Shown here: piece by piece, positions 8,026 through 48,630 of the stretch
How the letters are laid out: each line of letters starts with the position of its first letter
Position numbering within the stretch: position 1 is the stretch's first letter
Assembly (NCBI GenBank): GCA_030059665.1
Contig: JANVYR010000002.1
Span: 321,441-385,440, forward strand
From: Candidatus Calditenuis fumarioli
GTDB taxonomy: Archaea; Thermoproteota; Nitrososphaeria_A; Caldarchaeales; Calditenuaceae
Direction: 5' to 3'
Length of the DNA stretch: 64,000 nt
Translations under genes and position numbers: made by a program
Notes under the pieces: model-generated
Databases searched by the model: none
What the model was told of the DNA's origin: nothing
What the model saw: only the letters and a program-made list of their open reading frames with translations

Positions 8026-8203
8026 CGCAACAAGAGCACCGTCACTAGATACTTACGATTTCCTCGGAAACACGAAACCGCGTAAAGGACCTGTTAAGGC
8101 GACGATTAGCCAACAGCGCACCAGCGGTGACGGGAAGAGCGTTTCAACAGAAATGAGACGGTCGCCTGTGATGTTCTCGTCATCCTGCGGACGGCGTTTC
8201 GAT

Positions 8204-8292
8204 AGCCCCGGGAGGGATTCGAACCCTCGACCACCGGCTCTCCCGGCCAACTATCATACAAGGCCGGCGCTCTACCGCTGAGCTACCGGGGC
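8204..8292 (-). tRNA. tRNA-Thr (anticodon UGU) with ~17-nt intron after position 37
   Basis: Acceptor GCCCCGG/CCGGGGC, D-arm GCTCAGCGGTAGAGC, T-arm GAGGGTTCGAATCCCTC. Anticodon stem CCGGC/GCCGG encloses CTTGTA[TGATAGTTGGCCGGGAG]A. U33 and A37 are in the right places. Confidence 0.65.
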
Positions 8293-8316
8293 CCTGAAGA
8301 GCGTTCACCTCCGACC

Positions 8317-11553: not shown

Positions 11554-14370
11554 ATGTCCAACGAGAGCTCACAGGATAGCTTGGAGTTGGAGTTCGACGA
11601 GAGCCACTACGTGACCGGCTACCTCCGGGAGAGGGGGTTCGTCAGGAGGAGGTGCAGGGTGTGCGGCAAGCACTTCTGGACGCTCGATCCGGAGAGGGAC
11701 AACTGCAACGAGGCCCCCTGTGTTCCGTACGAGTTCATCGGCAACCCGCCGACCAGCAGGAGCTTCACGCTGGACGGGATGAGGGACGCCTTCATCGGCT
11801 TCTTCGAGGAGCACGGCCACACGCCGATAGACCCGTACCCGGTCGTTCCCAGGTGGAGGAGGGACCTCTTCCTGGTCTCGGCCAGCATAGTCGACTTCCA
11901 GCCCCACGTCACCTCGGGACTGATGGAGCCGCCCGCGAACCCTCTGGTGGTGAGCCAGCCCTGCATCAGGCTGGTGGACGTCGACAAGGTGGGCCTCACG
12001 CTCGGCAGGCACATGACGGTCTTCGAGATGGGAGGGGCCCACGCCTTCAACTTCCCGGGAAGGGAGGTCTACTGGAAGGACAGGACCGTCGAGCTCTGCT
12101 CGGAGTTCCTCGAGAGGCTGGGCGTCAGCGAGGAGGAGGTGGTTTACAAGGAGGGCGTGTGGAGCGGCGGCGGCAACGCTGGTCCCTGCTTCGAGGTGAA
12201 CGTCGGGGGACTTGAGGTGGCGACGCTGGTCTTCATGAGCTACAGGGTGGCCGACGGACGGCTCGAGGAGCTTCCTGTCAGGACCGTCGACACAGGCTAC
12301 GGCATAGAGCGGTTCACCTGGCTCAGCAACGGCACGCCAACGGCCTTCGAGGTCGTTTACGCCGACGTGATCCAGAGGGCCAAGGAGCTGCTCGGTAGGT
12401 ACGAGCTTGACAGGGATTTCCTGATGAGGTACGGCCGTTACTCCGCCTGGATCCAGCCTGGAGGCGAGGTGACGGTCTCGGAGGCCAGGAGGAGGGCCGC
12501 TGAGCTGGCAGGCGTTGACCTCGACTCGGTGCTCCCGCAGCTCGAGGCGCTCGAGAGGTTCTACGCGGCCCTGGACTACTCGAAGTCGATCGCGTTCATC
12601 CTCTCCGAGGGCGTCGTCCCCTCCAACACCAAGGTCGGTTACCTCGCCCGGCTGCTGATCAGGAGGCTTCACAGGACCCTCACCCACCTGAACGCGCAGG
12701 ACAGGATCCTCGACCTCCTGGACCTACAGCTGAACCATTGGGGGAGGAGGTTCAGGCAGCTGCTGGAGGCGAGGGACGACGTCCTTGAGTTGGTCGACTA
12801 CGAGGTCAGGAGGTTCGCCGAGACGCTGGAGAAGGGAAGGCAGCACCTCGAGAGGACCCTGAGGGAGCTGAAGGCGAGGGGAGGGGCCGTTACGACCGAG
12901 ACGATGATCAGGCTCTACGACGAGCGGGGCCTTCCGCCGGACCTCGTCAGGGAGGTGGCCGGGAAGCTCGGGGTGAGGGTGGAGGCGCCGGAGAACGTCC
13001 AAGAGATCGTCGCCAGCATGCACATGTCGGAGGCCCAGAGGGAGGAGGTCCAGGACCCGAGGGAGGCCAGGGCGAGGGAGCTGATCAGGGGGCTTCCCCA
13101 GACCGAGCGGCTCTACTACCTCGACCAGTACAGGACGGAGTTCGAGTCGAGGGTCCTCGCGGCAGCCGACGGCATGGTGGTCCTCGAGGCGACCTGCTTC
13201 TACCCGGAGGGCGGAGGGCAGGTGGCGGACACGGGCGTCATACGTCACGGGAGAGGGGAGTGCAGGGTCCTCGACGTCCAGTCCTACGACGGCGTAATCG
13301 TCCACTTCGTTGAGGGCGTCCTTCCTGAGCCAGGGGAGGTGGTGAGGGGAGAGGTCGACAGGGAGAGGCGGCTGAGCATCATGCGCCATCACACCGCCAC
13401 CCACATCCTGATCGGGACCGTGAGGAGGGTGTTGGGGAGACACGCTTGGCAGATGGGCGCGAGGAAGGAGGAGGGGAGGGCGAGGCTCGACGTCAGCCAC
13501 CACAGGCCCCTGACCCCGGAGGACGTCGCGAGGATAGAGCGCGTGGCGAACGAGGTGGTGGCGCGGAGGCTTCCGGTGGAGGTCAGGTGGTACGACAGGC
13601 ACGAGGCCGAGAGGCTCTTCGGCTTCACCCTCTACCAGGGTGGGGAGGCCCCTGCTGGACAGGTCAGGGTCGTGAACATCCCCGGGTGGGACGCTGAGGC
13701 CTGCGGCGGCACCCACTGCGCCAACACCTCCGAGGTCGGCTTCATCAAGATCATCGGAACCGAGAAGATCGCGGACGGCGTCGTCAGGCTCGAGTACGCC
13801 GCAGGTCCCGCAGCGCTCAGCTACGTCCAGTCGAGGATCTCCGAGCTCGAGGAGAGGGCCGAGCGGTCGGAGCGGTCGGAGCGGGAGGTCAGCACCTTCG
13901 CCGAGAAGCTCTTCAGGTCCATGGAGGCCGAGGACCCGTCGGATCCGTCAAGGCACGTTGAGTACCTCAGGGCACACTACGCAGCGGCCGCTAGATACTG
14001 GATGGCCTTCAGGAGGTACCAGAAGGAGGAGGACGTCGAGGGCGTGCGGGTGATCTTCGACTTCGTCCAGACGAGGAACCAGATGGTGGTGGAGGAGATG
14101 CTCCAGCAGGTCACGTCGGTCCAAGTGCCGGCCGCCGTGCTCCTGGTGAGGTCCTCCGGCCGCAAGCTCGAGTTCTGGCTCTCCCTTAACAGGCAGGCCC
14201 TCAGCTCGGGACTGTCCCCCCCGTCGCTCGTCGACGAGCTGAGGAGCTGGCGCCAGGACGTCCGGATCGAGGCCTCCGAGAGGACGCTGAGGGGAGAGGT
14301 GGAGAGCGCGAAGGTCGGGGACCTCTACGGAGCTGTCGTGGGGGCCATCAGGAAGGTCAGGAGCCGATGA
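11554..14370 (+). CDS. alaS: Alanyl-tRNA synthetase
   Basis: Archaeal-type N-terminus, HTATHIL editing motif and C-Ala domain; 939 aa from the ATG at 11554. Confidence 0.95.
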   Translation: MSNESSQDSLELEFDESHYVTGYLRERGFVRRRCRVCGKHFWTLDPERDNCNEAPCVPYEFIGNPPTSRSFTLDGMRDAFIGFFEEHGHTPIDPYPVVPRWRRDLFLVSASIVDFQPHVTSGLMEPPANPLVVSQPCIRLVDVDKVGLTLGRHMTVFEMGGAHAFNFPGREVYWKDRTVELCSEFLERLGVSEEEVVYKEGVWSGGGNAGPCFEVNVGGLEVATLVFMSYRVADGRLEELPVRTVDTGYGIERFTWLSNGTPTAFEVVYADVIQRAKELLGRYELDRDFLMRYGRYSAWIQPGGEVTVSEARRRAAELAGVDLDSVLPQLEALERFYAALDYSKSIAFILSEGVVPSNTKVGYLARLLIRRLHRTLTHLNAQDRILDLLDLQLNHWGRRFRQLLEARDDVLELVDYEVRRFAETLEKGRQHLERTLRELKARGGAVTTETMIRLYDERGLPPDLVREVAGKLGVRVEAPENVQEIVASMHMSEAQREEVQDPREARARELIRGLPQTERLYYLDQYRTEFESRVLAAADGMVVLEATCFYPEGGGQVADTGVIRHGRGECRVLDVQSYDGVIVHFVEGVLPEPGEVVRGEVDRERRLSIMRHHTATHILIGTVRRVLGRHAWQMGARKEEGRARLDVSHHRPLTPEDVARIERVANEVVARRLPVEVRWYDRHEAERLFGFTLYQGGEAPAGQVRVVNIPGWDAEACGGTHCANTSEVGFIKIIGTEKIADGVVRLEYAAGPAALSYVQSRISELEERAERSERSEREVSTFAEKLFRSMEAEDPSDPSRHVEYLRAHYAAAARYWMAFRRYQKEEDVEGVRVIFDFVQTRNQMVVEEMLQQVTSVQVPAAVLLVRSSGRKLEFWLSLNRQALSSGLSPPSLVDELRSWRQDVRIEASERTLRGEVESAKVGDLYGAVVGAIRKVRSR

Positions 14371-15217
14371 GCCTCGCGAGGGCCTGAGCCCTGGCCTCCG
14401 CTGTCCTAAGAACGTGCTCCACCGTCTCGCTGGTTACGTACCCTGCCTCCGTCGCGAGCGAGACGGCCCTCCTCTGGGCGAGCACCAGCAGGTCAGCAAT
14501 CACCTCCGGCTCGGGAACGCCCAGCTCTATCAGCAGCAGCCTGGCGCTGGCATGACACGAGGCCAGGTCCCTCCTTACGGAGTCCAGGTCCAGCACGAGG
14601 TCCTCGGCCCTGATCACCAGCTCGCCGTCGACGGCCGCGATCACGTTGAGACCCCTGTAGACCGCGGGGATGTCGAGCTTTGCCAGGAGGCTCGCGAGGG
14701 CCGGGCTGATTTCGTCGCCCTTCTTCGCCACCACCGTCTCCTTCGCTATCCATATCGTCCCTCCCTCGATCCTGGTAGGTATCCGAAGCTTCCCGAACTC
14801 CGATAGGATCGGGCCTGGCGGGATGCCCGTGTTCATCGGCGGCACAACCACGTCCACATCTGCTTTCTCGCCGGCCTTCGGCGGCGTCAGGATCCTGCCC
14901 TGATCGATCTCGATCTTCAGCCGGAACGGGTTCAGTTCGGTGACTATGAAGCCCACCGGCGTCTTGAGGCCCCTCAGTAGATCGGCCAGGGCCTTCCTCC
15001 CGGCCCTCTCGGCCGCGATCGCGGCCAGCGTCTTCTTCGCGACCCTGACCACCGCCCTGCCGCGGAGGGTGACCCTGAAGCGCTGGAGGACGTCGGTGCT
15101 CGTCCTGGTCAGGTCCAAAACCACCACTACCGGCTTCTCCCTGAAGAGCCTCTCCAGCAGCTCGATCTCCCTCGCCTTCCTCTCCCTCGGCCGCAGCAGA
15201 GTTCTCTGGACCGCCAT
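14357..15217 (-). CDS. Ribosomal stalk protein P0 (uL10), lacking C-terminal acidic tail
   Basis: Collinear with archaeal P0 through both domains. It ends at ...AQALARLIGS, convergently overlapping alaS. Confidence 0.8.
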   Translation of the reverse strand: MAVQRTLLRPRERKAREIELLERLFREKPVVVVLDLTRTSTDVLQRFRVTLRGRAVVRVAKKTLAAIAAERAGRKALADLLRGLKTPVGFIVTELNPFRLKIEIDQGRILTPPKAGEKADVDVVVPPMNTGIPPGPILSEFGKLRIPTRIEGGTIWIAKETVVAKKGDEISPALASLLAKLDIPAVYRGLNVIAAVDGELVIRAEDLVLDLDSVRRDLASCHASARLLLIELGVPEPEVIADLLVLAQRRAVSLATEAGYVTSETVEHVLRTAEARAQALARLIGS

Positions 15218-15363: not shown

Positions 15364-16230
15364 TTGCGACCTGATCCCCGTTCCATCTTCACACGGTTAT
15401 ATAGCATCGGCCGGAGGTCGATTCGGGAACGTAGCTTGGCCGAGAAGCTGAAGAGGGAGTTCATAGAGCTGCTGGAGAAGGACGTCGAGTTCAGGTACAC
15501 CGTTGCAGGCTACCTCGGCCTGTCTGAGATTCTGAAGAGGCTTGACAGACACGAGTCCCACATACTCGAGATACTGAAGAGGCTCGACAGGCTGGAGGAG
15601 AATCAAAACAGGCTATGGGAGAACCAGAACAAGCTCTGGGAGGAGGTGAGGAACCTTCGCGAGGGTCAGAACAGACTGTGGGAGAATGTTAACAGGCTGT
15701 GGGAGGAGGTCAGAGCGCTTAGGGAGGGACAGGAGAGGCTGTGGGAGAGCGTGAGGCGACTCGAGGAGAACCAAAGCAGACTGTGGGAGGAGCACAGGCG
15801 TCTGAGGGAGTACGTCAAGGCAGGATTCAGGGACCTCTCGATGGCCCTGGGCGTGACCTTCGAGATGCACGCGTCGTCCTTCCTGGAACTGCTACTTGAG
15901 GAGATGGGATACCCTCAGGCGAGGGTCGAGAAGAAGTACCTGGTTGAAGACGGAGAGGTGATTGAGATAGACATGTTCTGCGAGGAACCTCTCGTAGTCG
16001 GTGAGGTCACTACTCACATAGCGACCGCAGAGGCAGCGAAGGCGGAGGTCGAGAAGCTGCTCAGGAGGGTGAGGCTGGTGGAGAGGAAGTACGGGAGGAA
16101 GGTCGATCTGATCGTTCTGACGGCTTCCACGGTGACCCCAGAGGCCCACGAGGAGCTGAGGAGGTCGTCGAAAGAGCACGGGATAAGGCTGGTCCTGGGA
16201 AGGGAGATAAAGGAGAGGTTGACGATCTGA
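15364..16230 (+). CDS. Coiled-coil heptad-repeat protein with C-terminal PD-(D/E)xK-like (restriction-endonuclease-fold) domain
   Basis: Ten consecutive heptads of the form xxxRLWE. The C-terminus VEDGEVIEIDMFCEEPLVVGEVTTHI...KVDLIVLTAS resembles archaeal DUF3782-type nuclease-fold proteins. Confidence 0.55.
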   Translation: MRPDPRSIFTRLYSIGRRSIRERSLAEKLKREFIELLEKDVEFRYTVAGYLGLSEILKRLDRHESHILEILKRLDRLEENQNRLWENQNKLWEEVRNLREGQNRLWENVNRLWEEVRALREGQERLWESVRRLEENQSRLWEEHRRLREYVKAGFRDLSMALGVTFEMHASSFLELLLEEMGYPQARVEKKYLVEDGEVIEIDMFCEEPLVVGEVTTHIATAEAAKAEVEKLLRRVRLVERKYGRKVDLIVLTASTVTPEAHEELRRSSKEHGIRLVLGREIKERLTI

Positions 16231-16287: not shown

Positions 16288-16363
16288 AGCGGGGTAGGGT
16301 AGCCAGGTCTATCCCGCCGGGCTCATAACCCGGAGATCGGTGGTTCAAATCCACCCCCCGCTA
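16288..16363 (+). tRNA. Initiator tRNA-Met (anticodon CAU, A1:U72)
   Basis: Acceptor AGCGGGG...CCCCGCU, anticodon arm CCGGG CTCATAA CCCGG, T-arm GGTGGTTCAAATCCACC. Confidence 0.85.
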
Positions 16364-16725
16364 CACGAATGTTACCCCTCGTCGGGCCAAAGGGCACAAC
16401 GTCTTCACACGTCCTTGAAACACCAAAGGCTCGATCGCGCTCAAACCCCGCACCTCGTAGTCCTCCCTACTCGTTCGGGACGCTTACAGCTTGACCTCAG
16501 GGGACCCGTTACCCCCGAAACTACCCGAGGACAGCACGCTCCCGGTCTGGACGCTGTACGACACGCGATCAAGGTCCTTCGAGCTCCTCTACTATCACGG
16601 AGATGATGAAATAGCGGGTGGCAAACGTCGTTTCACAGCACAGCCCCACTCTGTACAGTAGCTGGAACCAGAACCAAGGGTTAGCTGGAGCAGCGGTGAT
16701 AAGGAGGTGCTACTAGGTCAAGGCG

Positions 16726-17178
16726 ATGGAAGGCTGGGCCATAAGGAGGGACCTGGTTCTGGTGGCGCTGCTGGAGGGACCGAAGACGTTGAGCGAGCTG
16801 TCCCGGGTCACGGGGCTGAGCAGGTCCGAGCTGGAGGCCACACTTCTCTCCCTGAAGGTCGCCGGGCTGGTGCTGGAGCAGGAGGCGAGGGGACTGATCA
16901 GGAGGAAAACGGTGTACTCGCTGACCGAGCAGGGGCGCAAAGAGGCCAAGGAGGCGAGGTCCAGGATCGAGCGGATAGCTCAGGAGGTGACGCAGAAGGT
17001 CGAGGAGGGAGACGATGAAGGCCTCGAGGAGTTGCTGACGGCCTACGTGCTCTTCCTCCCTCTTCTGATGCACCTCCACCTGCTCGATGTGGCTCTTCTG
17101 CAGCAGCTGGGGGATATCAACGACTGGGCGCCCGAGGGGGAGAAGTCAGGCGACGAGCTGGAGGACACTTGGATCTGA
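16726..17178 (+). CDS. Winged-helix (PadR/MarR-like) transcriptional regulator
   Basis: N-terminal wHTH (LLEGPKTLSELSRVTGLSRSELEATLLSLKVAGLV) and an acidic C-terminus. Confidence 0.6.
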   Translation: MEGWAIRRDLVLVALLEGPKTLSELSRVTGLSRSELEATLLSLKVAGLVLEQEARGLIRRKTVYSLTEQGRKEAKEARSRIERIAQEVTQKVEEGDDEGLEELLTAYVLFLPLLMHLHLLDVALLQQLGDINDWAPEGEKSGDELEDTWI

Positions 17179-17603
17179 CCGAGTCTCAGGGCCGTGCGGA
17201 GGCCCACCCAAGCGGATGCTGATTTGATGCGTCCGCGGGACACGAGCAGCGAGGTGGCTATGACCGCGGGCTGGGCTACCACGGCGACCACGTAACCGGG
17301 CAGGCTGAAGAGGTAGGCGGCGAACTCCAAATATGTGGTCCCGAACTCGGGTGCGGTCAGCACGTCTCCCAGGAACAGCGCGAGCTTGATGAGCGCCCAG
17401 AGCGCGAGCAGCCTCCTGCGCAGCTGAAACCTCGGCGAGAAGAGCGTGTAGGCGAGTAGGTCGACAACGGTGATGGCGATCAGCCCGTAGGCGTGACCGG
17501 GCGCGACCGTCCAGAGCTCAGCGTCCGTCAGCAGCAGCCAGACCTGACCCGCTATCGAGGCGGTGTGCGGTATCAGCGGCGCGATCTCCGCCTTAGAGCC
17601 CAT
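17043..17603 (-). CDS. Hypothetical membrane protein (C-terminal 45 aa low-complexity, overlaps convergent regulator gene)
   Basis: Four or five TM helices. The tail is Ser/Arg-rich. Confidence 0.35.
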   Translation of the reverse strand: MGSKAEIAPLIPHTASIAGQVWLLLTDAELWTVAPGHAYGLIAITVVDLLAYTLFSPRFQLRRRLLALWALIKLALFLGDVLTAPEFGTTYLEFAAYLFSLPGYVVAVVAQPAVIATSLLVSRGRIKSASAWVGLRTALRLGQIQVSSSSSPDFSPSGAQSLISPSCCRRATSSRWRCIRRGRKST

Positions 17604-18205
17604 GCGACGGAACCTCCGAGGGCCGCCACCAGGACCGCTGCGACAAGAATTATCAGTGTTGACGCATCACCCTGTTGCGCCGTAGTCGCCGTAACTCCCC
17701 CCATGGTTAACGCGATCGTCGTCGTTAGGGTTACGGTGTCCATCCGCTCGGTCCAGGTGACCGTCGAGGTCTCCTTAGGTCTGACGACGATGGTGGCCTC
17801 CTGGCCGCGCTCACGATGACTCTGCCCGAAGGGCGGAGCGACGCTGCAGTAGTACTTGAACTCGCCGGGGTAGTTGGCGACGAACTCGATCACCTGCTCC
17901 TGCCCCCTCGAGAGCCTCCTGCTCCTGACGTCGTACGGCGACGGCGAGTTGGCGTCGAGCGTGAAGTCGTGGACGATCGGGCCCGAGCCGTTTCCTATCA
18001 GCCTGATCCTGATCGTGTCGCCCTGGTCAACCACCAGCGTCGGCCCTCCCCTCGTGGCGTTGAAGCCGTAGTCGTTCAGGTAGAGCGTGAAGGTCCTGAC
18101 GGTCTGTGCGTGTGCGTCAGGTGCGAGGAGCAGCAACGACGTGAGGACGAGCACCAGCGCTCCGAAGCCGTAGATCACTCTCATCAACCACTGCACGCCC
18201 AGCAT
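17573..18205 (-). CDS. Cupredoxin-like copper protein with N-terminal signal/TM and C-terminal TM
   Basis: Ligand-like pattern HDFTLD...YYCSVAPPFGQSHRERGQ. ATG at 18205 is chosen so the gene does not overlap tRNA-Val. Confidence 0.5.
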   Translation of the reverse strand: MLGVQWLMRVIYGFGALVLVLTSLLLLAPDAHAQTVRTFTLYLNDYGFNATRGGPTLVVDQGDTIRIRLIGNGSGPIVHDFTLDANSPSPYDVRSRRLSRGQEQVIEFVANYPGEFKYYCSVAPPFGQSHRERGQEATIVVRPKETSTVTWTERMDTVTLTTTIALTMGGVTATTAQQGDASTLIILVAAVLVAALGGSVAWALRRRSRR

Positions 18206-18265
18206 CCGAGAGAAATACGTTGCGAACAAATCGTCTGGTGCGCTTTGTATCGAGAAAGGCATCCA

Positions 18266-18337
18266 TGGGGCCGGTGGGAATCGAACCCACGACCTCCGCC
18301 GCGTCAAGGCGGCGTCATACCACTAGACCACGGCCCC
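18266..18337 (-). tRNA. tRNA-Val (anticodon GAC)
   Basis: GGGGCCG TG GTCT AGTGGTA TGAC G CCGCC TTGACGC GGCGG AGGTC GTGGG TTCGATT CCCAC CGGCCCC A. Confidence 0.85.
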
Positions 18338-41847: not shown

Positions 41848-42661
41848 CTAATTTAGGTGCCATGCGGACCCGATGGCCTCGGGTTGGGACGAGGAGAGCC
41901 CACGGGTCGAGCTGAAGGCAGAGAACAGGGTAGTCACGGAAAAGGCGTGAGGATCGGGAGGGTGGAGCGCTTTGGCATAGGGTGCGCGCCCGGACAGCTC
42001 GGGCGATTGGGAGTGGCGCGCTGAGGGCGTCCGGCTTACGCCTCCGCCCTTACACGCCCACCCCATCAACCCCCTCTTCTAGGGGAGCCCTCGTCGGGGC
42101 CCAAGGCCCGTTGCCGGGCCCTATAGGCCCCGATTGGCCGCCTATTTTTGGGAGGGGCTTCGGGCTTAGATGCTTTCAGCCCTTATCCCCAGGGGCGCGG
42201 CTGCCCGGCGTCGCCCTGTAGGACGACCGGCACACCGTTGGCCCCGGCCCTCCGTTCCTCTCGTACTAGGAGGACCTTGCCCTCAGGCGGCCCGCACCCC
42301 CAGCAGGTAGAATCCGACCTGGCTCACGCCGGTCTAAACCCAGCTCACGTTCCCCTTTGATAGGCGAGCAGCCTCACCCTTGGCCCCTGCTGCGAGGCCA
42401 GGATGGGAAGAGCCGACATCGAGGTACCAAGCCGCGGGGTCGATGGGGACTCTCGCCCGCGACGAGCCTGTTATCCCTGGGGTAACTTTTCTGTCACCAC
42501 CGGCCCCCACTGGTAGGGGCCGATGGATCGCTAGGCCCGGGTTTCCCCTCAGGACCCCTTGCGTTCGAGGGTCCTGTCAGGCCGGCTTTTGCCCTTGCAC
42601 TCTACAGCGGGTTTCTGTCCCGCCTGAGCCGACCTTTGGGCTCCCCCGATATCTTTTCGGG

Positions 42662-42692
<31 letters not shown>

Positions 42693-43534
42693 CCGTTGTC
42701 CCAGGGCACAGGCCCCGGTTAGCGGGACAGCCCCAGGTGGCCGGTGTTACATTGGCGCCTCCCCGGGCCCCCGGAGAGGCCCGGATCGACGGCTCCCGGC
42801 TACGCTATGCACCCAGAGCCATCCCGCAGCGACAGGCTGCAGTAAAGCTCCACAGGGTCTTCTCTCCCCGCTGGGGGTCCGTGGACTGTTCGTCCACGTT
42901 ATGTGGGTTCACGGGGCTCCGGGCCGGGACAGTGGGGCCCTCGTTGATCCATTCGTGCGCGTCGGAACTCACCCGACAAGGCATTTGGCTACCTTAAGAG
43001 GGTCAGGATTACCCCCGGCGCTAGCCGGCCCTTATCCCGGTTGGACCCGGGTTTCAGGTACCGGTGCTGGCCAGGATTGAGAAGCCGTTCAAAGCCTTTC
43101 GGCCTTGCGGCTTCCTATGTTTTTATTAAACAGTCGGGACCCCCTTGTCACTGCGACCTGCCAACCCCTCCTCGTCGGAGAGGAAGGCAGGCACCCCTTC
43201 TCCCGAGGTTACGGGGCCAATTTGCCGAGTTCCCTGGCCCGGAGTCACCCCAGACGCCTTGGCCTTCTCAGCCAGGGGCACCAGTGTCGGATCTAGGTAC
43301 GGTCTCCCGGGATCGTTCCGGACCCCCTTTTCACTGGCTCCAGGGATCGGCCGAAGCGGCATGCGCCGCCCCGTCACGCCTTCACCCGGTTCTCGCCATT
43401 ACGGCCCTCCCCGGGCTTCAGCGCTTGGCCGGAGCTACGGCCCCGGTCGGCCTACCCCGAAGCGTCAGGGGTCCGGCCTGCGTTGCCGCACCTACCCGGG
43501 AGGCGCCGGAATCTTAACCGGCTTCCCCTTCGGC

Positions 43535-44170
43535 CTACCCGGTTAAGGTCGGCCTTAGGACCGGCTTACTCCCGGCTGACGACGCATTGCCGGGAAACCC
43601 GTGCCCTTCCGGCGGAGGGGATTCGAGGAGAGGGAGAAGGGCCGTCCGTTCCCAAAAGGTGAACAAGTCAAGGAGGAAGGAATTGTAAACCCTAATTGAG
43701 AGAGTTCCAAAATTTGAGCGTGATGTTCGCGATCCACGCCTCACTACGGATTTGCGGAATTGCGACAAGGGTATATTCAGCAGATTTGACCAATATCTCT
43801 CCAATTTCTGTACGACCTCGTCACGTTCCCATTTAGCGAGTTTAATTTGCAATCGAGGTTTAATCGCACTTCTCGTCACCCCTAATATCTCCAAAAATTT
43901 GACCATGGCCAGAAGCTTATTAGGGTCGCTATTAACGAATTCGAACCTCGTCTTCACGGTTTTGGGCCTCTTGGTTCCTTCACCTGCGTAGAGGCCTATA
44001 GCGTACCCGAATAAGATCGCGGGGACGAATCGTCGGATAACGATGCTTCCCACCCGGCCGTTTCGGTACTTATATTGAATGATTATCCTGTCGTCCTCAA
44101 TTATCTTCCTAATCACTTTGCTAAAGTTCAAGGTTTCGGGAACCAATTCGGCAATATCTACACAAATCAT
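43535..44170 (-). CDS. LAGLIDADG homing endonuclease (intron-encoded); C-terminal ~30 codons read into 3' exon
   Basis: ILFGYAIGLYAGEGTK is a LAGLIDADG-type motif. ATG at 44170 is inside the intron. Confidence 0.7.
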   Translation of the reverse strand: MICVDIAELVPETLNFSKVIRKIIEDDRIIIQYKYRNGRVGSIVIRRFVPAILFGYAIGLYAGEGTKRPKTVKTRFEFVNSDPNKLLAMVKFLEILGVTRSAIKPRLQIKLAKWERDEVVQKLERYWSNLLNIPLSQFRKSVVRRGSRTSRSNFGTLSIRVYNSFLLDLFTFWERTALLPLLESPPPEGHGFPGNASSAGSKPVLRPTLTG

Positions 44171-44229
44171 GCCCTTTACTTCGTAGATTTGTTTAAGACT
44201 GGTTATTTAAAGATTATTGGACGGCCCTG
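43636..44229 (-). mobile_element. Archaeal rRNA intron (bulge-helix-bulge-like) in 23S domain III-equivalent hairpin
   Basis: A 0.6-kb AT-rich block. Its flanks GAGAGGG[UCA]GGGCCGUC and GACGGCCC[UUCUC]CCUCUC form a long bulged helix. Removing it restores an E. coli-like AAAG-CGGGUGAAAAGCCCG-CUCGCCGGAAG topology. Confidence 0.6.
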
Positions 44230-45911
44230 ACCCTCTCTTTCCCACCCCTCTTCGCTGTCTACTACCACCGGGATCTGCATTGGCGGCCGGTCCACGGGAC
44301 CTCACGGCCCCGCTTCTGCCCAGCCGCCACGCCCCCCTACCCCCACCCGTGCAAGGCACGGGTGAGCCCGGGTTTCGGCGGCCCGCTTAGACCCGTCAAT
44401 TTTCGGGGCCCCCGTCCTCGGCGGGTAAGCTGTTACGCACTTCTTAGCCGATGGCTGCTTCTAAGCCTACGGCCCCGCTGTCTCAGGACGGGGACGCCCT
44501 TCGGTTTGTCACTTAGCGGGCACTTAGGGGCCTTAACCCGAGGTCTGGGTTGTTCCCCTCTCGGTCCTGGAGCTTACCCCCAGTACCCCACTCCCGGGAT
44601 CTACGGCGCCCGCGGGTTCGTAGTTTGAAAGGAGAGCGGGGCCTCATCGGCCCCTTTCTCCCCTATCAGTGCCCTACCCCGCGGGCAACCTCCCCCGGGG
44701 CTGTCCTGCGAGACACTTCGGGGGGAACTAGCTATCACCGGGCTCGGTTAGCTTTTGACTCCTAGCCCCAGGTCAGGGGACCGAATTGCACGTCAGGACC
44801 CCTATTCGGGCCTCGACCGGGGTTTCCCCCGGCTTCACCCTGCCCAGGGCTAGATCGCCCGGTTTCTAGCCTCACGGGCGTGGCTACAGGCCCTTTCGGA
44901 CCCCGCCCCTCGCCGGGGCTAACCCCGGCTGCGGGCGCTCGGTTTCCCTACGCCTCCGGGCTTACAGCCCTTAGACTCGCCACACCCGTGAACTCCCCGG
45001 CCCGTGTTTCAAGACGGAGCGGACGACCCTGGGATTGTCCCCGCGCGGCCCCTTGCGGGGCCTTGACGGGGATTTCCCTTTCGGGCCGCCCTCGTCTGTT
45101 ACCGGCCGGTTTCAGGCGCTTTTCACCCCCCTCTCGGGGTACTTTTCACCTTTCGCTCACGCTACTGGTCCGCTATCGGTCTTGGGACGTATTTAGCCTT
45201 GGAGGCCAGTGGCCCCCAACTTCCCGCACCATATCCGAGGTGCGGTACTCTGGGATCCGGGGCATCACCCATCCGCCCTTCGCCTACGGGGCTGTCACCC
45301 TCTGTGGCCCCCCATTCCAGGGGAGTTCGGCTCGGGCTTCAGGGTGGACCCCCGGCCCTTAACCCCACATTCCCCCTGAGTTTCCCCAGGGGGTTCGGTT
45401 TGGGCTTCTCCCCGTTCGGTCGCCCCTACTAGGGGAATCTCGTTTGATTTCTTCTCCTCCCCCTACTTGGATGCTTCCGTTCGGGGGGTTCCCGATCCCG
45501 GCTCGAGGCCGGGACCGCGGCGAGCCGAAGCCCGCCGCAGGATGTCCCATTAGGAGATCCCCGGATCTACCCCTGCCTGCGGGTACCCGGGGCTTATCGC
45601 AGCTTGCCACGTCCTTCGTCGGCGCCCAAGCCGAGGCATCCACCGGCCGGCGTACCCCTGTCCGGGCCAAGGCGCACCCTATCTTGCCGCGCTCCACCCT
45701 CCCATGACGCGGTCACAGCATGAGCTCCCGCATCCCGCCGTGGGGCCTCCCCCGCGGCGTTCACGCCAACTGGGTATTGTGCAAAAGGACCCTATTAAAC
45801 CATCCGACGAATAAGGCAGTAAAGAGTGCCCAATCATACGGGTCCTGCCAGCCCGTCGCCCCGCTGCCCCTGCAAATGGCAACCCACGACGTCGGACTAA
45901 AATGAAACCCG

Positions 45912-48295: not shown

Positions 48296-48630
48296 GGAGG
48301 CGGCGGGTAGGGCCAGGGGGCTAGCCCTCCCCTTCCCGTAGCGGACCCGAAACGGGCTCACGCGGGGGCCAGCAACCGGCGGCGTACGGCCGCGTTGCGG
48401 GGCTAGGGAAGGCAGGGGGCGGATGAGCGCGCGTCCCGGTGGAGGCGGGTAGGGCCCCACGCCCTCCGTAGGGAGGGCCTCTGGGGTCCGCGCGCGCCGA
48501 ACCGCGTCAGGCCCGGGAGGGAGCAGCGCTAAGGCGCGGCTCGCCTGCTGCCGGGAAAACGTGCGGGACGCTGCCGGCCTGACCGATCCCCGCACCGCGA
48601 CCGGAAACCGCCGGAGCCGCCGCCTCCTAA
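48296..48630 (+). ncRNA. Signal recognition particle RNA (7S/SRP RNA)
   Basis: Helix-8 motif GUCAGGCCCGGGAGGGAGCAGCGCUAAGGCGCGGC matches the 4.5S/7S consensus GGUCAGGUCCGGAAGGAAGCAGCCAAGGCAG. An 11-bp terminal helix pairs GGAGGCGGCGG (48296-306) with CCGCCGCCUCC (48617-627). GGGCUAGCCC-type Alu-domain hairpins are present. Confidence 0.7.

What the first reader, a model, noticed from the sequence alone, without database searches (positions are those of the whole stretch)
15364..16230. Ten-heptad RLWE coiled-coil fused to a PD-(D/E)xK-like fold, adjacent to initiator tRNA
Residues ~70-140 are ten uninterrupted heptads with an invariant R-L-W-E at positions 4-7 (NQNRLWE NQNKLWE EVRNLRE GQNRLWE ...). 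A repeat this regular, with Trp at a fixed heptad position, is striking. The C-terminal 130 aa (EVIEIDMFCEEPLVVGEVTTHI...RKVDLIVLTAS...GIRLV) has the strand-D / strand-ExK-like spacing of restriction-endonuclease-fold proteins. That resembles the archaeal coiled-coil plus DUF3782-type family, whose function is unknown. The gene sits between the P0 gene and tRNA-iMet, and tRNA-flanking positions are common landing sites for defence or mobile cargo. The 360-bp gene-free stretch after the tRNA may be a footprint.
Basis: partly seen in the sequence, partly recalled or inferred. Interest (0 to 1): 0.6.

Follow-up and report, generated by a model that had tools for sequence, protein, structure and literature searches.

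The report
Coiled-coil-stalked nuclease-fold protein, variable stalk
This is a real gene for an uncharacterised protein of hot-spring archaea: a long Trp-studded heptad stalk whose length changes in whole heptads between strains, carrying a restriction-endonuclease-like domain. It is a native, stand-alone gene, not cargo dropped beside the tRNA.

Summary
The ORF is real, but its true start is TTG 15436 (264 aa), not 15364. It contains 14 in-register heptads. Leu and Glu are fixed, and Trp occupies one heptad position in 6 of them, so "invariant RLWE" is overstated. [quoted passage not shown] Foldseek hits are dominated by PD-(D/E)xK nucleases such as Card1, Cdn1 and EndoMS. Across 293 homologues the motif E…E-x-(D/N)…E-x-T…K is nearly invariant, with Thr replacing the canonical Lys, as described for DUF1626. 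The family is confined mainly to thermophilic TACK-type archaea (Thermoproteota and Aigarchaeota), with a few Asgard and Archaeoglobi MAGs. It has no Pfam model and no solved relative. It matches only the PADLOC model C3a181, a borderline type III CRISPR "accessory" cluster.

Two findings are new here. Stalk length varies only in whole heptads (7–29), even among proteins with ≥93% identical C-domains. Genomes carry 2–4 paralogues, and in this lineage homology between loci begins at the start codon and ends at the stop codon.

The defence or mobile-cargo reading is not supported. tRNA adjacency recurs in 1 of 60 loci scanned. Neighbours are unrelated housekeeping genes. No integrase or att repeat is present, and GC3 is native. 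The function is still unknown; a metal-dependent nuclease held on an oligomeric stalk is most likely.

The parts
15397..15403 (+). TATA-like box (TTATATA), about 35 nt upstream of the TTG start
   Evidence: Read from the sequence. Comparable A/T boxes lie 27-45 nt upstream of the start codons at the paralogous and orthologous loci. Promoter function is inferred, not shown.
15436..16230 (+). Revised coding sequence: 264 aa, TTG start, TGA stop
   Evidence: Homologues start here. P0001 is 264 aa and 97% identical. Homology between loci begins at 15436-15442 and ends at 16228.
15436..15543 (+). N-terminal 'head' (residues 1-36, AEKLKREFIELLEKDVEFRYTVAGYLGLSEILKRLD). It is the most conserved part of the protein and is predicted to be a short helix (2-15) folding back onto the start of the stalk.
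   Evidence: L13, D16, F19, Y21 and G28 are invariant in 40 sequences. AF2 gives H2-15, a break at 16, then H17-138. N-domain identity exceeds C-domain identity in every paralogue pair tested.
15529..15822 (+). Heptad coiled-coil stalk: 14 heptads, with Leu at d, Val/Gln/Asn at a, Trp/Arg/Glu at e and an invariant Glu next
   Evidence: Heptad listing, shuffle test, and one continuous 122-residue helix in AF2 at pLDDT 92-98. The spacing from the N-domain to the C-domain is 5 mod 7 in 129 of 131 family members.
15603..15748 (+). DNA-level tandem repeat (63-bp period, 2.3 copies) encoding the LWE heptads. This is the substrate for heptad gain and loss.
   Evidence: TRF score 164, 77% matches. The 229-aa variants lack exactly 105 bp (5 heptads) here.
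15826..16227 (+). C-terminal restriction-endonuclease-like (PD-(D/E)xK-fold) domain
   Evidence: AF2 pLDDT 86.6 with a-bbb-a-b-a-b topology. Foldseek against PDB: Card1 6wxw/6xl1 at probability 1.0 and TMq 0.47-0.52, plus Cdn1, Avs4, EndoMS, FokI and N.BspD6I. Foldseek against BFVD: restriction endonucleases, Cas4-like and HJR-family nucleases.
15862..15864 (+). Glu (motif I, first helix of the domain)
   Evidence: E in 276 of 293 homologous C-domains.
15964..15972 (+). E-I-D on strand beta2 (motif II region): a near-invariant Glu, then Asp or Asn
   Evidence: E in 272 of 293. D in 177 and N in 115 of 293; the window has D.
16003..16011 (+). E-V-T on strand beta3 (motif III, with Thr in place of the canonical Lys)
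   Evidence: E in 292 of 293. T in 281 of 293, K in only 4. The same substitution is described for DUF1626 in PMC1913061.
16054..16056 (+). Lys in the helix after beta3, a candidate 'migrated' catalytic Lys
   Evidence: K in 270 and R in 9 of 293. The role is inferred by analogy with PMC1913061.
16254..16262 (+). TATA-like box (TTTAAATTA) about 30 nt upstream of the tRNA. It implies the tRNA is a separate transcription unit.
   Evidence: Read from the sequence. A similar box (TTTATATTC) is conserved upstream of the same tRNA in L043. Function is inferred.
16288..16364 (+). Initiator tRNA-Met (CAT): a neighbour, not part of the protein's system
   Evidence: ARAGORN and Rfam. A1:U72 and GGG/CCC anticodon stem read from the sequence. 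No partial copy elsewhere in the window.
16365..16725 (.). Gene-free spacer before the HxlR/ArsR-type HTH gene (16726-17178). No feature was found in it.
   Evidence: No Rfam hit at E<=1. Fold z-scores are +1.5 and +1.15. The spacer lies within an alignment that is 95.7% identical overall to L009. The HTH gene is annotated from Pfam.

Best explanation
The gene (15436-16230) is a native, independently transcribed chromosomal gene. It encodes a member of an uncharacterised protein family found mainly in thermophilic TACK-type archaea. The protein has three parts.
- A 36-residue, very highly conserved N-terminal helical hairpin.
- One uninterrupted heptad coiled-coil stalk, 14 heptads here, about 18 nm if fully helical.
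- A C-terminal restriction-endonuclease-fold domain with the near-invariant constellation Glu (helix 1), Glu-x-Asp/Asn (strand 2), Glu-x-Thr (strand 3) and Lys (following helix).

The most likely mechanism is as follows. The stalks associate in parallel into a dimer or trimer. This places two or three nuclease-fold domains at one end and the conserved N-terminal caps at the other. The C-domain binds divalent metal through the acidic cluster and cuts, or at least grips, nucleic acid. The stalk acts as a rigid spacer whose length is reset in whole heptads by slippage or recombination in its 21/42/63-bp DNA repeats, which preserves the angular register between head and nuclease.

What is shown: the fold, the motif conservation, the heptad quantisation, the multi-copy state and the lack of a conserved genomic partner. 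What is inferred: oligomerisation, metal binding, nuclease activity, the substrate and the biological role. The position next to tRNA-iMet is ordinary gene order, shared with one Caldarchaeum relative, not an integration scar.
For: Fold:
- AF2 gives pLDDT 86.6 for the C-domain and 87.2 for the full length, with the canonical a-bbb-a-b core.
- Foldseek hits are enriched for PD-(D/E)xK nucleases in both PDB and BFVD.
- Sub-threshold Pfam hits are Mrr_cat (19.6 bits, covering profile positions 12-113 of 115) and PDDEXK_10.

Active-site-like conservation over 293 C-domains: E24 94%, E58 93%, E71 99.7%, T73 96%, K88 92%. This matches the DUF1626 description of Thr in motif III with a Lys in the next helix (PMC1913061).

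Stalk:
- The head-to-domain distance is 5 mod 7 in 129 of 131 members, spanning 54-208 residues.
- Ten of 11 clusters with >=93% identical C-domains contain several stalk lengths, up to 15 heptads apart.
- The 264-aa and 229-aa variants differ by an exact 105-bp deletion.

Native and solitary:
- GC3 is 0.80 against 0.78-0.87 in neighbours.
- Each locus has its own TATA-like box.
- 118 immediate neighbours fall into 104 Pfam families.
- The P0 | gene | tRNA-iMet | HTH arrangement recurs in relatives L094, L097 and L100.

Family size and spread: 228 representatives at E<=1e-3 among 1.84 billion proteins, and 118 loci mainly in TACK-type archaeal genomes, plus a few Asgard and Archaeoglobi MAGs.
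Against: - No sequence method places the domain in a characterised nuclease family above threshold. Pfam scores are below the gathering cut-offs, PDB profile searches are empty, and hhalign against EcoKMrr gives probability 0.07.
- No Foldseek E-value is <=1e-3.
- The canonical motif III Lys is absent.
- The motif II Asp is Asn in 39% of members, including close orthologues. In classical PD-(D/E)xK enzymes that change inactivates the enzyme.
- The oligomeric state was not modelled; only monomer AF2 was available.
- No conserved partner or context hints at a substrate.
- Some stalk-length variants come from short-read metagenome assemblies, where repeat mis-assembly cannot be fully excluded.
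Confidence: 0.55

Rival explanations
1. The restriction-endonuclease-fold domain is catalytically dead. The protein would then be a structural or tethering factor: a rigid oligomeric rod that uses the degenerate nuclease fold only to bind nucleic acid or another ligand, with the N-terminal cap docking to a common partner.
For: - The canonical Lys is replaced by Thr in 96% of members, and the motif II Asp is Asn in 39%. D-to-N is the standard inactivating mutation, as in the deposited Card1 D294N structure (6xl1).
- Inactive nuclease-like folds such as the ERCC1 central domain appear among the Foldseek hits.
- The N-terminal cap is more conserved than the C-domain in all paralogue pairs. That fits a shared docking function with diversified binding modules.
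Against: - Four charged positions (E24, E58, E71, K88) remain 92-99.7% conserved across a family whose C-domains otherwise fall to 25-45% identity. That level of conservation is more typical of a catalytic site.
- E58 lies two residues before D/N60 on the same strand, cross-strand from T73. It could replace the missing acid (inference from the hairpin register).
Confidence: 0.25
2. This is the first reader's reading: a defence or otherwise mobile cargo gene that landed beside the initiator tRNA, with the 361-bp spacer as an integration footprint.
For: - The family is multi-copy, patchy and fast-changing in stalk length.
- It matches a PADLOC model (C3a181, E = 5e-16).
- A near-identical copy in relatives sits next to an integrase-like gene (phrog_1, E = 3e-7) and tRNA-Lys.
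- HEPN-MNT pairs lie within 0.1-2.5 kb in 4-6 of 84 loci, and a CRISPR array lies near L070.
- Homology between loci is confined to the ORF, and hybrid flank combinations exist.
Against: - tRNA adjacency occurs in 1 of 60 other loci.
- The window has no tRNA-fragment duplication; no integrase-like ORF was noticed near the gene, though the window was not systematically screened.
- The L008 copy has no att-like repeat.
- GC3 is native.
- None of the recurring immediate-neighbour families is a cas, R-M or integrase family; the highest recurrence is 3, for MoeA.
- The frequency of HEPN-MNT pairs is no higher than I would expect by chance in thermophilic archaea; that background rate is my own estimate and was not tested.
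- The spacer has no detectable feature and falls within a 95.7%-identical alignment to L009.
Confidence: 0.12
3. An accessory effector of type III CRISPR-Cas, as implied by its match to cluster C3a181 and by the Card1/Cdn1-like fold of its nuclease domain.
For: - PADLOC PDLC01085 (C3a181) matches at E = 5.4e-16 for the window protein and 1.6e-19 for the Metallosphaera homologue.
- The best credible Foldseek hits are the nuclease domains of the cOA-activated effectors Card1 and Cdn1.
Against: - C3a181 was defined from 3 genes with an association score of 25.55, just above the cut-off of 24. Its label 'diadenylate cyclase' does not fit this protein (PMC6546367).
- There is no CARF or other sensor domain.
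- Only 1 of about 84 loci has a CRISPR array within 8 kb, and the window has none.
- No cas family appears among the recurring immediate-neighbour families.
Confidence: 0.05
4. A selfish, gene-sized unit resembling a free-standing homing endonuclease, which copies itself between chromosomal sites.
For: - Three loci in this lineage share about 96-100% identical coding DNA while their flanks are unrelated right up to the start and stop codons.
- Flank combinations A-C, A-D, B-C, B-D and E-C are all observed.
- PD-(D/E)xK homing endonucleases exist (my own background knowledge, not checked here).
Against: - The repeated unit lacks its own promoter and any terminal repeats.
- The pattern is equally well explained by gene conversion between old paralogues, or by assembly chimeras at a repeated gene. 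Several contigs end inside the gene.
- The paralogue P0090 shares only its 5' 330 nt, which indicates a conversion tract rather than transposition.
- No empty site was seen.
Confidence: 0.03

Closest known systems
DUF1626 / PDDEXK_10 (PF07788, COG5493) with the DUF3782 (PF12644) coiled coil: predicted prokaryotic 'endonucleases' of unknown function (PMC1913061; PMC3424549; PMC4786415)
   Same: - The architecture is the same: N-terminal coiled coil followed by a C-terminal a-bbb-a-b-a-b restriction-endonuclease fold.
- The motif peculiarity is the same: Thr replaces the motif III Lys, with a conserved Lys/Arg in the following helix (one search compared).
- A C-domain profile of this family reaches proteins that carry DUF3782 above threshold (P0322) or the MATK beta-layer motif (P0332), at E = 3e-9 and 2e-7 against 1.84 billion proteins.
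   Different: - This protein and its close relatives fall below both Pfam thresholds.
- The stalk is made of pure heptads with a Trp ladder, not the nonads/beta-layers described for the crenarchaeal members (one search compared).
- It has a distinct, highly conserved N-terminal cap (EFRYxVAGYLG).
C3a181 (cluster 181 of Shah et al. 2018, example Tpen_1359; PADLOC PDLC01085)
   Same: Direct sequence-profile match over nearly the whole protein, at E = 5.4e-16.
   Different: - The cluster was proposed as a type III CRISPR accessory from 3 genes at a borderline score, and was labelled 'diadenylate cyclase'.
- Here there is no CRISPR or cas association and no cyclase-like domain.
Card1 / Can2 / Cdn1 nuclease domains (PDB 6wxw, 6xl1, 9u49)
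   Same: Best credible structural matches to the C-domain: Foldseek probability 0.99-1.0, TMq 0.47-0.52. They share the restriction-endonuclease fold.
   Different: - Those enzymes are CARF-domain dimers activated by cyclic oligoadenylate. This protein has no CARF domain, and a coiled coil sits in its place.
- Sequence identity is 13-20%, and the E-values (>=0.01) are not significant on their own.
CoCoNuTs (coiled-coil nuclease tandems; Type IV restriction branch, PMC11090510)
   Same: Conceptual resemblance only: long coiled coils combined with nuclease domains.
   Different: - According to the paper's abstract and my own recollection, CoCoNuTs are a branch of multi-gene McrBC-type systems; their taxonomic range was not checked here.
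- This is a solitary archaeal gene with no GTPase or helicase partner among its neighbours.

Membership tests
PD-(D/E)xK (restriction-endonuclease-like) superfamily | [quoted passage not shown] | tested here: met
   AF2 model at pLDDT 86.6 with elements H23-37, E46-52, E55-63, E68-76, H79-100, E106-114. Foldseek hits include Card1, Cdn1, EndoMS, FokI and viral restriction endonucleases, although no E-value is <=1e-3.
PD-(D/E)xK (restriction-endonuclease-like) superfamily | Acidic residue on strand 2 (the 'D' of PD) | tested here: inconclusive
   The window has Asp (EID). Across the family it is D in 60% and N in 39%. A near-invariant Glu (93%) lies two residues upstream on the same strand.
PD-(D/E)xK (restriction-endonuclease-like) superfamily | (D/E)-x-K on strand 3 | tested here: not met
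   The motif is E-V-T: Glu in 99.7%, Thr in 96% and Lys in only 4 of 293. A Lys conserved at 92% in the next helix may substitute, as proposed for DUF1626. That substitution is untested.
PD-(D/E)xK (restriction-endonuclease-like) superfamily | Metal-dependent phosphodiesterase activity | not testable with these tools
   This requires biochemistry.
Pfam PDDEXK_10 (PF07788, formerly DUF1626) | Score at or above the gathering cut-off of 21.2 bits | tested here: not met
   17.8 bits for the full ORF and 19.1 bits for the C-domain. Only 2 of 13 members match at E<=0.1. None of 20 more distant members matches at E<=0.01. No hit in the third homologue search carries PF07788.
Pfam DUF3782 (PF12644) | Score at or above the gathering cut-off of 24.4 bits | tested here: not met
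   No hit at E<=1 for the window protein. The distant C-domain relative P0322 passes at 32 bits, and P0313 scores 20.5 bits.
Crenarchaeal DUF3782 'alpha/beta coiled coil' endonucleases (Hartmann et al. 2016) | Nonads or beta-layers ([aliphatic]-A-T-K-[polar]-[D/E]) interrupting the heptads | tested here: not met
   Fourteen uninterrupted heptads and no ATK motif. The spacing is 5 mod 7 in 129 of 131 relatives. The motif does occur in the distant relative P0332.
C3a181 type III CRISPR accessory cluster | Match to the cluster HMM (PADLOC PDLC01085) | tested here: met
   E = 5.4e-16, 57 bits, residues 4-228 matching profile positions 2-208 of 226.
C3a181 type III CRISPR accessory cluster | Encoded next to type III cas modules | tested here: not met
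   The window has no CRISPR-like array, and only 1 of about 84 family loci has one within 8 kb. No cas family appears among the recurring (listed) families of 118 immediate neighbours. The full +/-8 kb regions were not scanned with cas HMMs.
tRNA-integrated mobile element cargo | Integrase near the tRNA and a direct repeat of part of the tRNA (att) bounding the element | tested here: not met
   No second copy of the tRNA-iMet 3' half with up to 3 mismatches in 64 kb. The neighbours are P0, AlaRS, an HTH gene, a cupredoxin gene and a PDT gene. GC3 is native.
Mrr_cat (PF04471) | Score at or above 21 bits, or profile similarity to EcoKMrr | tested here: not met
   16.7-19.6 bits. hhalign of the family profile against EcoKMrr gives probability 0.07.

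The most novel reading that the evidence does not exclude
The family could be a 'ruler nuclease' system. The heptad-quantised stalk would set the distance and the fixed angular phase between a conserved N-terminal docking cap and diversified nuclease heads. Strain-level gain and loss of heptads would retune that distance. Gene conversion would keep the cap and stalk of the 2-4 paralogues in a genome identical, so that they can co-assemble into mixed oligomers carrying different nuclease heads. That would be a combinatorial, length-tunable nucleic-acid-cutting device with no described counterpart in archaea.
Probability: 0.1. Interest if true: 0.75.

Novelty: new variant of a known kind. Interest (0 to 1): 0.4.

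Why it matters
Coiled-coil-plus-PD-(D/E)xK proteins have been catalogued since 2007, yet no member has a known function. This branch is common in hot-spring Aigarchaeota, Bathyarchaeia and Thermoproteota, and it is not covered by Pfam. The protein database used here holds more than 1,400 homologues.

The analysis supplies concrete handles for experiments:
- a confident domain model;
- a six-residue candidate active site, with a natural D/N polymorphism to compare;
- natural series of proteins that differ only in the number of heptads.

If the stalk length does set function, the family would be a naturally tunable molecular spacer. The all-heptad, Trp-laddered, thermostable stalk is also of interest to coiled-coil engineers.

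For genome annotators there are three practical messages. The gene start should be moved to 15436. The JGI names for homologues ('TOPRIM nuclease', 'YoxC', 'DUF342') are coiled-coil artefacts. The gene is a repeat that breaks or mis-joins metagenome contigs.

Tried and rejected
- **Sequence searches of the PDB.** The full protein and two family profiles gave only coiled-coil or chance hits.
- **NCBIfam.** Only coiled-coil noise.
- **hhalign of the family profile against E. coli Mrr.** Probability 0.07.
- **PF28175.** It appears in the precomputed annotations of homologues but turned out to be T4SS_LegC2C7, a coiled-coil family with faint hits. It was rejected as noise.
- **CRISPR link via C3a181.** It was followed into the source paper and then tested on the loci. 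It is rejected as a family trait.
- **Integrated-element idea for the relatives' B-D locus.** An integrase-like gene and tRNA-Lys are present, but no att repeat lies within 16.7 kb. This is left open as a side note.
- **HEPN-MNT association.** It is seen in 4-6 of 84 loci. I judged this no higher than chance expectation, based on my own estimate of the background, which was not formally tested.
- **Archease association.** It lies 35 bp downstream in two Desulfurococcaceae loci and about 940 bp away in two Geocrenenecus loci. This is suggestive, but too few independent events to build on.
- **A structured RNA or footprint in 16365-16725.** Nothing was found.
- **Low G+C of the gene as a sign of foreign origin.** The dip lies in codon position 2, reflecting amino-acid composition, not in GC3. 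My AlaRS frame was mis-set, so that row should be ignored.
Full report
**1. What is in the sequence**

An ORF runs from 15364 to 16230 on the + strand. It lies between the divergently oriented P0/uL10 gene (14357-15217; Pfam Ribosomal_L10 plus RL10P_insert) and a tRNA-Met(CAT) at 16288-16364. The tRNA has the A1:U72 pair and the GGG/CCC anticodon stem of an initiator tRNA (read).

The annotated start is too far upstream, for four reasons:
- Homologues cover only 92% of the ORF and begin with M-(A/S)-EKLKREF.
- The closest homologue, P0001, is 264 aa.
- A TTATATA box sits at 15397-15403, inside the long ORF.
- DNA homology to paralogous loci begins at 15436-15442.

I therefore take TTG 15436 as the start, giving 264 aa.

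**2. The repeat**

In 288-aa numbering, residues 56-153 form 14 heptads in one register:

ILKRLDR HESHILE ILKRLDR LEENQNR LWENQNK LWEEVRN LREGQNR LWENVNR LWEEVRA LREGQER LWESVRR LEENQSR LWEEHRR LREYVKA.

- Leu at the first listed position and Glu at the third are essentially fixed.
- Trp occupies the second position in 6 heptads, Arg in 3 and Glu in 2 of the eleven L-x-E heptads.
- All six Trp of the protein share one heptad phase (3 of 100,000 shuffles).
- Six LWE triplets never arose in 100,000 shuffles.
- At the DNA level TRF finds a 63-bp period at 15603-15748.

With Leu assigned to position d, position a alternates Val and Gln/Asn, and Trp sits at e. This is my reading of the pattern. The oligomeric state was not tested.

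**3. The C-terminal domain**

Sequence methods alone are inconclusive.
- Pfam gives only sub-threshold hits: PDDEXK_10 (17.8-19.1 bits against a cut-off of 21.2) and Mrr_cat (16.7-19.6 bits against 21).
- Profile searches of the PDB are empty.
- hhalign against EcoKMrr gives probability 0.07.

Structure prediction is clearer.
- With a 63-sequence alignment, AF2 gives pLDDT 86.6, with the core above 90.
- The elements are helix 23-37, strands 46-52, 55-63 and 68-76, helix 79-100, strand 106-114, helix 116-129 and strand 131-135.
[quoted passage not shown] It is also the a-bbb-a-b-a-b topology predicted for DUF1626 by Knizewski et al. (PMC1913061).

Foldseek results agree.
- Against the PDB it returns the nuclease domains of Card1 (6wxw, 6xl1; probability 1.0, TMq 0.47-0.52) and Cdn1. 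It also returns Avs4, EndoMS, FokI, EcoO109I, N.BspD6I and SPARDA.
- Against BFVD it returns "restriction endonuclease", Cas4-like, exonuclease VIII-like and HJR-family proteins.
- No single E-value is <=1e-3, so the evidence lies in the consistency of the hits together with the topology.

Motif conservation was measured across 293 homologous C-domains (residue numbers refer to the 145-residue translation of window 15793-16227, where H1 is the first residue):

| Position | Conservation |
|---|---|
| E24 (helix 1) | E in 94% |
| E58 | E in 93% |
| D60 | D in 60%, N in 39% |
| P66 | 100% |
| E71 | 99.7% |
| T73 | 96% (K in only 4 sequences) |
| K88 (helix after strand 3) | 92% |

D60 and E71 face each other across the beta2-beta3 hairpin. 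This is inferred from the hairpin register. A Thr in place of the motif III Lys, with a basic residue in the following helix, is exactly what was described for DUF1626.

That test is not triggered. The D/N polymorphism and the missing Lys do leave real doubt about catalysis.

**4. The family**

- The word-indexed search found 1,477 homologues at E<=1e-3, though part of that count may be driven by the coiled coil.
- A C-domain-only profile found 228 cluster representatives among 1.84 billion proteins.
- A scan of one genome per species found 118 loci. They lie in Calditenuaceae, Caldarchaeum and Geocrenenecus (Aigarchaeota), Bathyarchaeia, Brockarchaeota, Thermofilaceae, Desulfurococcaceae, Sulfolobales (including Metallosphaera yellowstonensis MK1), Korarchaeum and Nezhaarchaeales. 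A few loci come from Jordarchaeia, Promethearchaeati and Archaeoglobi MAGs.
- The contigs closest to the window are labelled "Nitrososphaerota archaeon" MAGs.
- All names given by sources are "hypothetical" or coiled-coil artefacts. None of the listed hits carries PF07788 or PF12644.

The distant end of the C-domain search does connect to the published family.
- P0322 passes DUF3782 at 32 bits.
- P0332 carries KMATKxD beta-layer motifs.
- Hartmann et al. described such stalks in "crenarchaeal endonucleases" and solved a trimeric stalk fragment (PMC4786415).

The only library model that recognises the window protein outright is PADLOC PDLC01085, "C3a181" (E = 5.4e-16). This is cluster 181 of Shah et al.: three genes, association score 25.55 against a cut-off of 24, example Tpen_1359, labelled "diadenylate cyclase" (PMC6546367).

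**5. New observations on the stalk**

The distance from the N-terminal FRY motif to the GFRxL motif at the start of the C-domain is 5 mod 7 in 129 of 131 members. It takes almost every heptad step from 54 to 208 residues.

Proteins were then grouped by C-domains that are >=93% identical. Ten of 11 groups with at least 3 members contain several stalk lengths, up to 15 heptads apart and always differing by multiples of seven. In this lineage, the 264-aa and 229-aa forms differ by a clean 105-bp deletion inside the repeat array.

Stalk length is therefore hypervariable at strain level, while the heptad phase between head and nuclease domain is strictly kept.

The full-length AF2 model (pLDDT 87.2) shows a short helix 2-15, a break at residue 16 and one continuous helix 17-138. 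A lower-confidence hinge follows before the domain. The 36-residue N-terminal cap is the best-conserved part of the protein. It is more conserved than the C-domain in every paralogue pair examined.

**6. Genomic context**

There is no paralogue in the 64-kb window, but genomes commonly hold 2-4 copies. One example is the four loci of assembly JAWBRA01. Tandem pairs occur in L067 and L088.

In the window's own lineage I found three kinds of locus:
- **A-C:** P0 | gene | tRNA-iMet, HTH. Seen in the window and in L094, L097 and L100.
- **B-D:** small hypothetical ORFs | 229-aa gene | protease-like gene, 124-aa ORF, integrase-like gene (phrog_1, E = 3e-7), tRNA-Lys. Seen in L001-L003 and L008.
- **E-F:** GatD | 236-aa paralogue P0090 | aminotransferase. 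Seen in L011 and L012.

The alignments show that homology between these loci starts at the start codon and stops at the stop codon. P0090 shares its first 330 nt or so almost exactly with the window gene, but its C-domain DNA is only about 70% identical. That pattern is the signature of a gene-conversion tract.

Hybrid contigs also exist: A-264-D (L010), B-229-C (L009) and E-264-C (L099, on a 24.8-kb contig). Several contigs end inside the gene. These hybrids are either real recombinants between paralogues or assembly chimeras at a repeated gene. I cannot tell which.

**7. Test of the defence or mobile-cargo idea**

- Of 60 genome loci scanned for tRNAs, only L043 (a Caldarchaeum MAG, 49% identical protein) has the same, nearly identical initiator tRNA about 125 bp downstream. 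One other locus has a tRNA 7 kb away. This looks like conserved local gene order in one clade, not a recurrent landing site.
- None of the 80 genome loci has P0, AlaRS or the HTH gene nearby.
- Clustering all ORFs within +/-8 kb of 84 loci found no conserved neighbour.
- The 118 ORFs lying within 700 bp hit 104 different Pfam families. The maximum recurrence is 3 (MoeA). None of the recurring families is a cas, integrase, transposase or R-M family.
- Minor recurrences are as follows:
  - HEPN-MNT pairs (4-6 loci) and PaREP1 (2 loci);
  - archease (35 bp downstream in two Desulfurococcaceae loci, about 940 bp away in two Geocrenenecus loci);
  - TRM5/TYW2 and TrmO (2 loci each).

  They are too few to support either a defence link or a tRNA-processing link.
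- Only L070 has a CRISPR array within 8 kb.
- In the window there is no partial tRNA copy, and no integrase-like ORF was noticed near the gene, although the window was not systematically screened.
- The spacer 16365-16725 has no Rfam hit and no excess structure. It falls within an alignment that is 95.7% identical overall to L009.
- The G+C dip over the gene (0.57 against 0.64-0.68) lies in codon position 2. GC3 is 0.80, like the neighbours at 0.78-0.87.
- The gene and the tRNA each have their own TATA-like box.

**8. Interpretation**

Shown:
- The gene is real and native.
- It has a perfect heptad stalk with a Trp ladder.
- It has a restriction-endonuclease-fold C-domain with a strongly conserved charged cluster.
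- Stalk length is quantised in heptads and varies between strains.
- The gene is multi-copy, with conversion of the 5' half between copies.
- It has no conserved genomic partner.

Inferred:
- The stalks form a parallel oligomer. The only structural precedent in the wider family is trimeric.
- The C-domain binds metal and cleaves nucleic acid.
- The stalk acts as a spacer.

Main rival: the fold has lost catalysis and serves as a binding module on a structural rod. The defence-cargo, CRISPR-accessory and selfish-gene readings are each weakly supported and are ranked low.

**9. Novelty and score**

The general kind of protein, a coiled coil fused to a predicted PD-(D/E)xK domain in archaea with unknown function, has been in the literature since 2007. 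This branch differs in three ways:
- an all-heptad Trp-laddered stalk instead of nonads/beta-layers;
- its own N-terminal cap;
- no Pfam coverage.

The heptad-quantised strain-level length polymorphism and the concerted evolution of cap and stalk were not mentioned in any of the papers I searched or read. I class it as a new variant of a known kind, with moderate interest of 0.4. It is a tidy and experimentally approachable puzzle, not a surprise that overturns anything.

Noticed in passing
window 41987-45668 (-), ORF 43535-44170 (-): The archaeal LSU rRNA match spans 3,682 nt against a 2,987-position model, which implies about 700 nt of insertion. On the same strand, inside the match, lies a 211-aa ORF with a LAGLIDADG-like 'GLYAGEG' motif. 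This is probably an rRNA intron with a homing endonuclease. Pfam gave no hit at E<=1e-3. No SSU or 5S rRNA was reported in the window.
   Followed up: partly
window 8203-8293 (-): tRNA-Thr(TGT) is 91 nt long, which suggests an intron-containing tRNA gene.
   Followed up: no
window 48476-48562 (+): A marginal Rfam hit to Bacteria_small_SRP (42 bits, gathering score 40) in what is otherwise an archaeal window. It may be part of an archaeal SRP RNA, or chance.
   Followed up: no
L001 7043-10573; L008 9043-12573; L010 2521-5553: In close relatives, a near-identical copy of the gene is followed by four features. These are a protease-like gene (phrog_20754), a 124-aa ORF, a 440-aa integrase-like gene (phrog_1, E = 3e-7, HxxR...H...Y motifs) and tRNA-Lys(CTT). 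Together they look like an integrated element. No att-like repeat of the tRNA was found within 16.7 kb.
   Followed up: partly
L099 3711-4505; L010 1374-2168; L009 1564-2253: Some contigs join the flanks of different paralogous loci through the gene: GatD|264|HTH, P0|264|protease and B-flank|229|tRNA-iMet. Several other contigs end inside the gene (L093, L096). Either the paralogues recombine in nature, or the gene is a repeat that produces chimeric or broken metagenome contigs.
   Followed up: partly
L041 2696-3454 (-); also L004 2022-2639, L015, L031, L074, L082: An acylphosphatase domain (PF00708, E = 6e-21) is fused to a second kind of perfect repeat (EFRDYRQ/EFRDYWS heptads). It lies 1.6-5 kb from the family gene in 6 loci of different lineages. 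This is another heptad-repeat protein of unknown role, and the co-location is unexplained.
   Followed up: partly
L049 6225-8162; L050 2962-4941; L026 7623-9806: In two Desulfurococcaceae MAGs the homologue is followed, 35 bp downstream and on the same strand, by archease and an overlapping DUF123 gene. This looks like an operon. In Geocrenenecus the homologue is divergent from ribosomal protein uL2, and archease lies about 940 bp away. It could hint at an RNA-processing link, but the independent cases are too few.
   Followed up: partly
L070 5069-5727: A genuine CRISPR-like array (9 copies of a repeat containing GTTGCAATAAGGCCCTTGAA) lies about 1.8 kb upstream of the family gene in a Crenarchaeota MAG. 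It is the only such case among about 84 loci.
   Followed up: no
L067 5565-6521 and 7425-8384 (CP117708.1, complete genome); L088 704-1450 and 1758-2597: These are tandem pairs of family genes on the same strand. Their N-terminal caps are 78% identical, but their C-domains are only about 38% identical. The paralogues have diversified nuclease-fold domains behind a shared cap.
   Followed up: partly
window 17573-18337: The ORF-list coordinates of the cupredoxin-like gene (17573-18307, -) overlap tRNA-Val (18266-18337, -). The ORF's real start is therefore probably further downstream than the first start codon listed.
   Followed up: no
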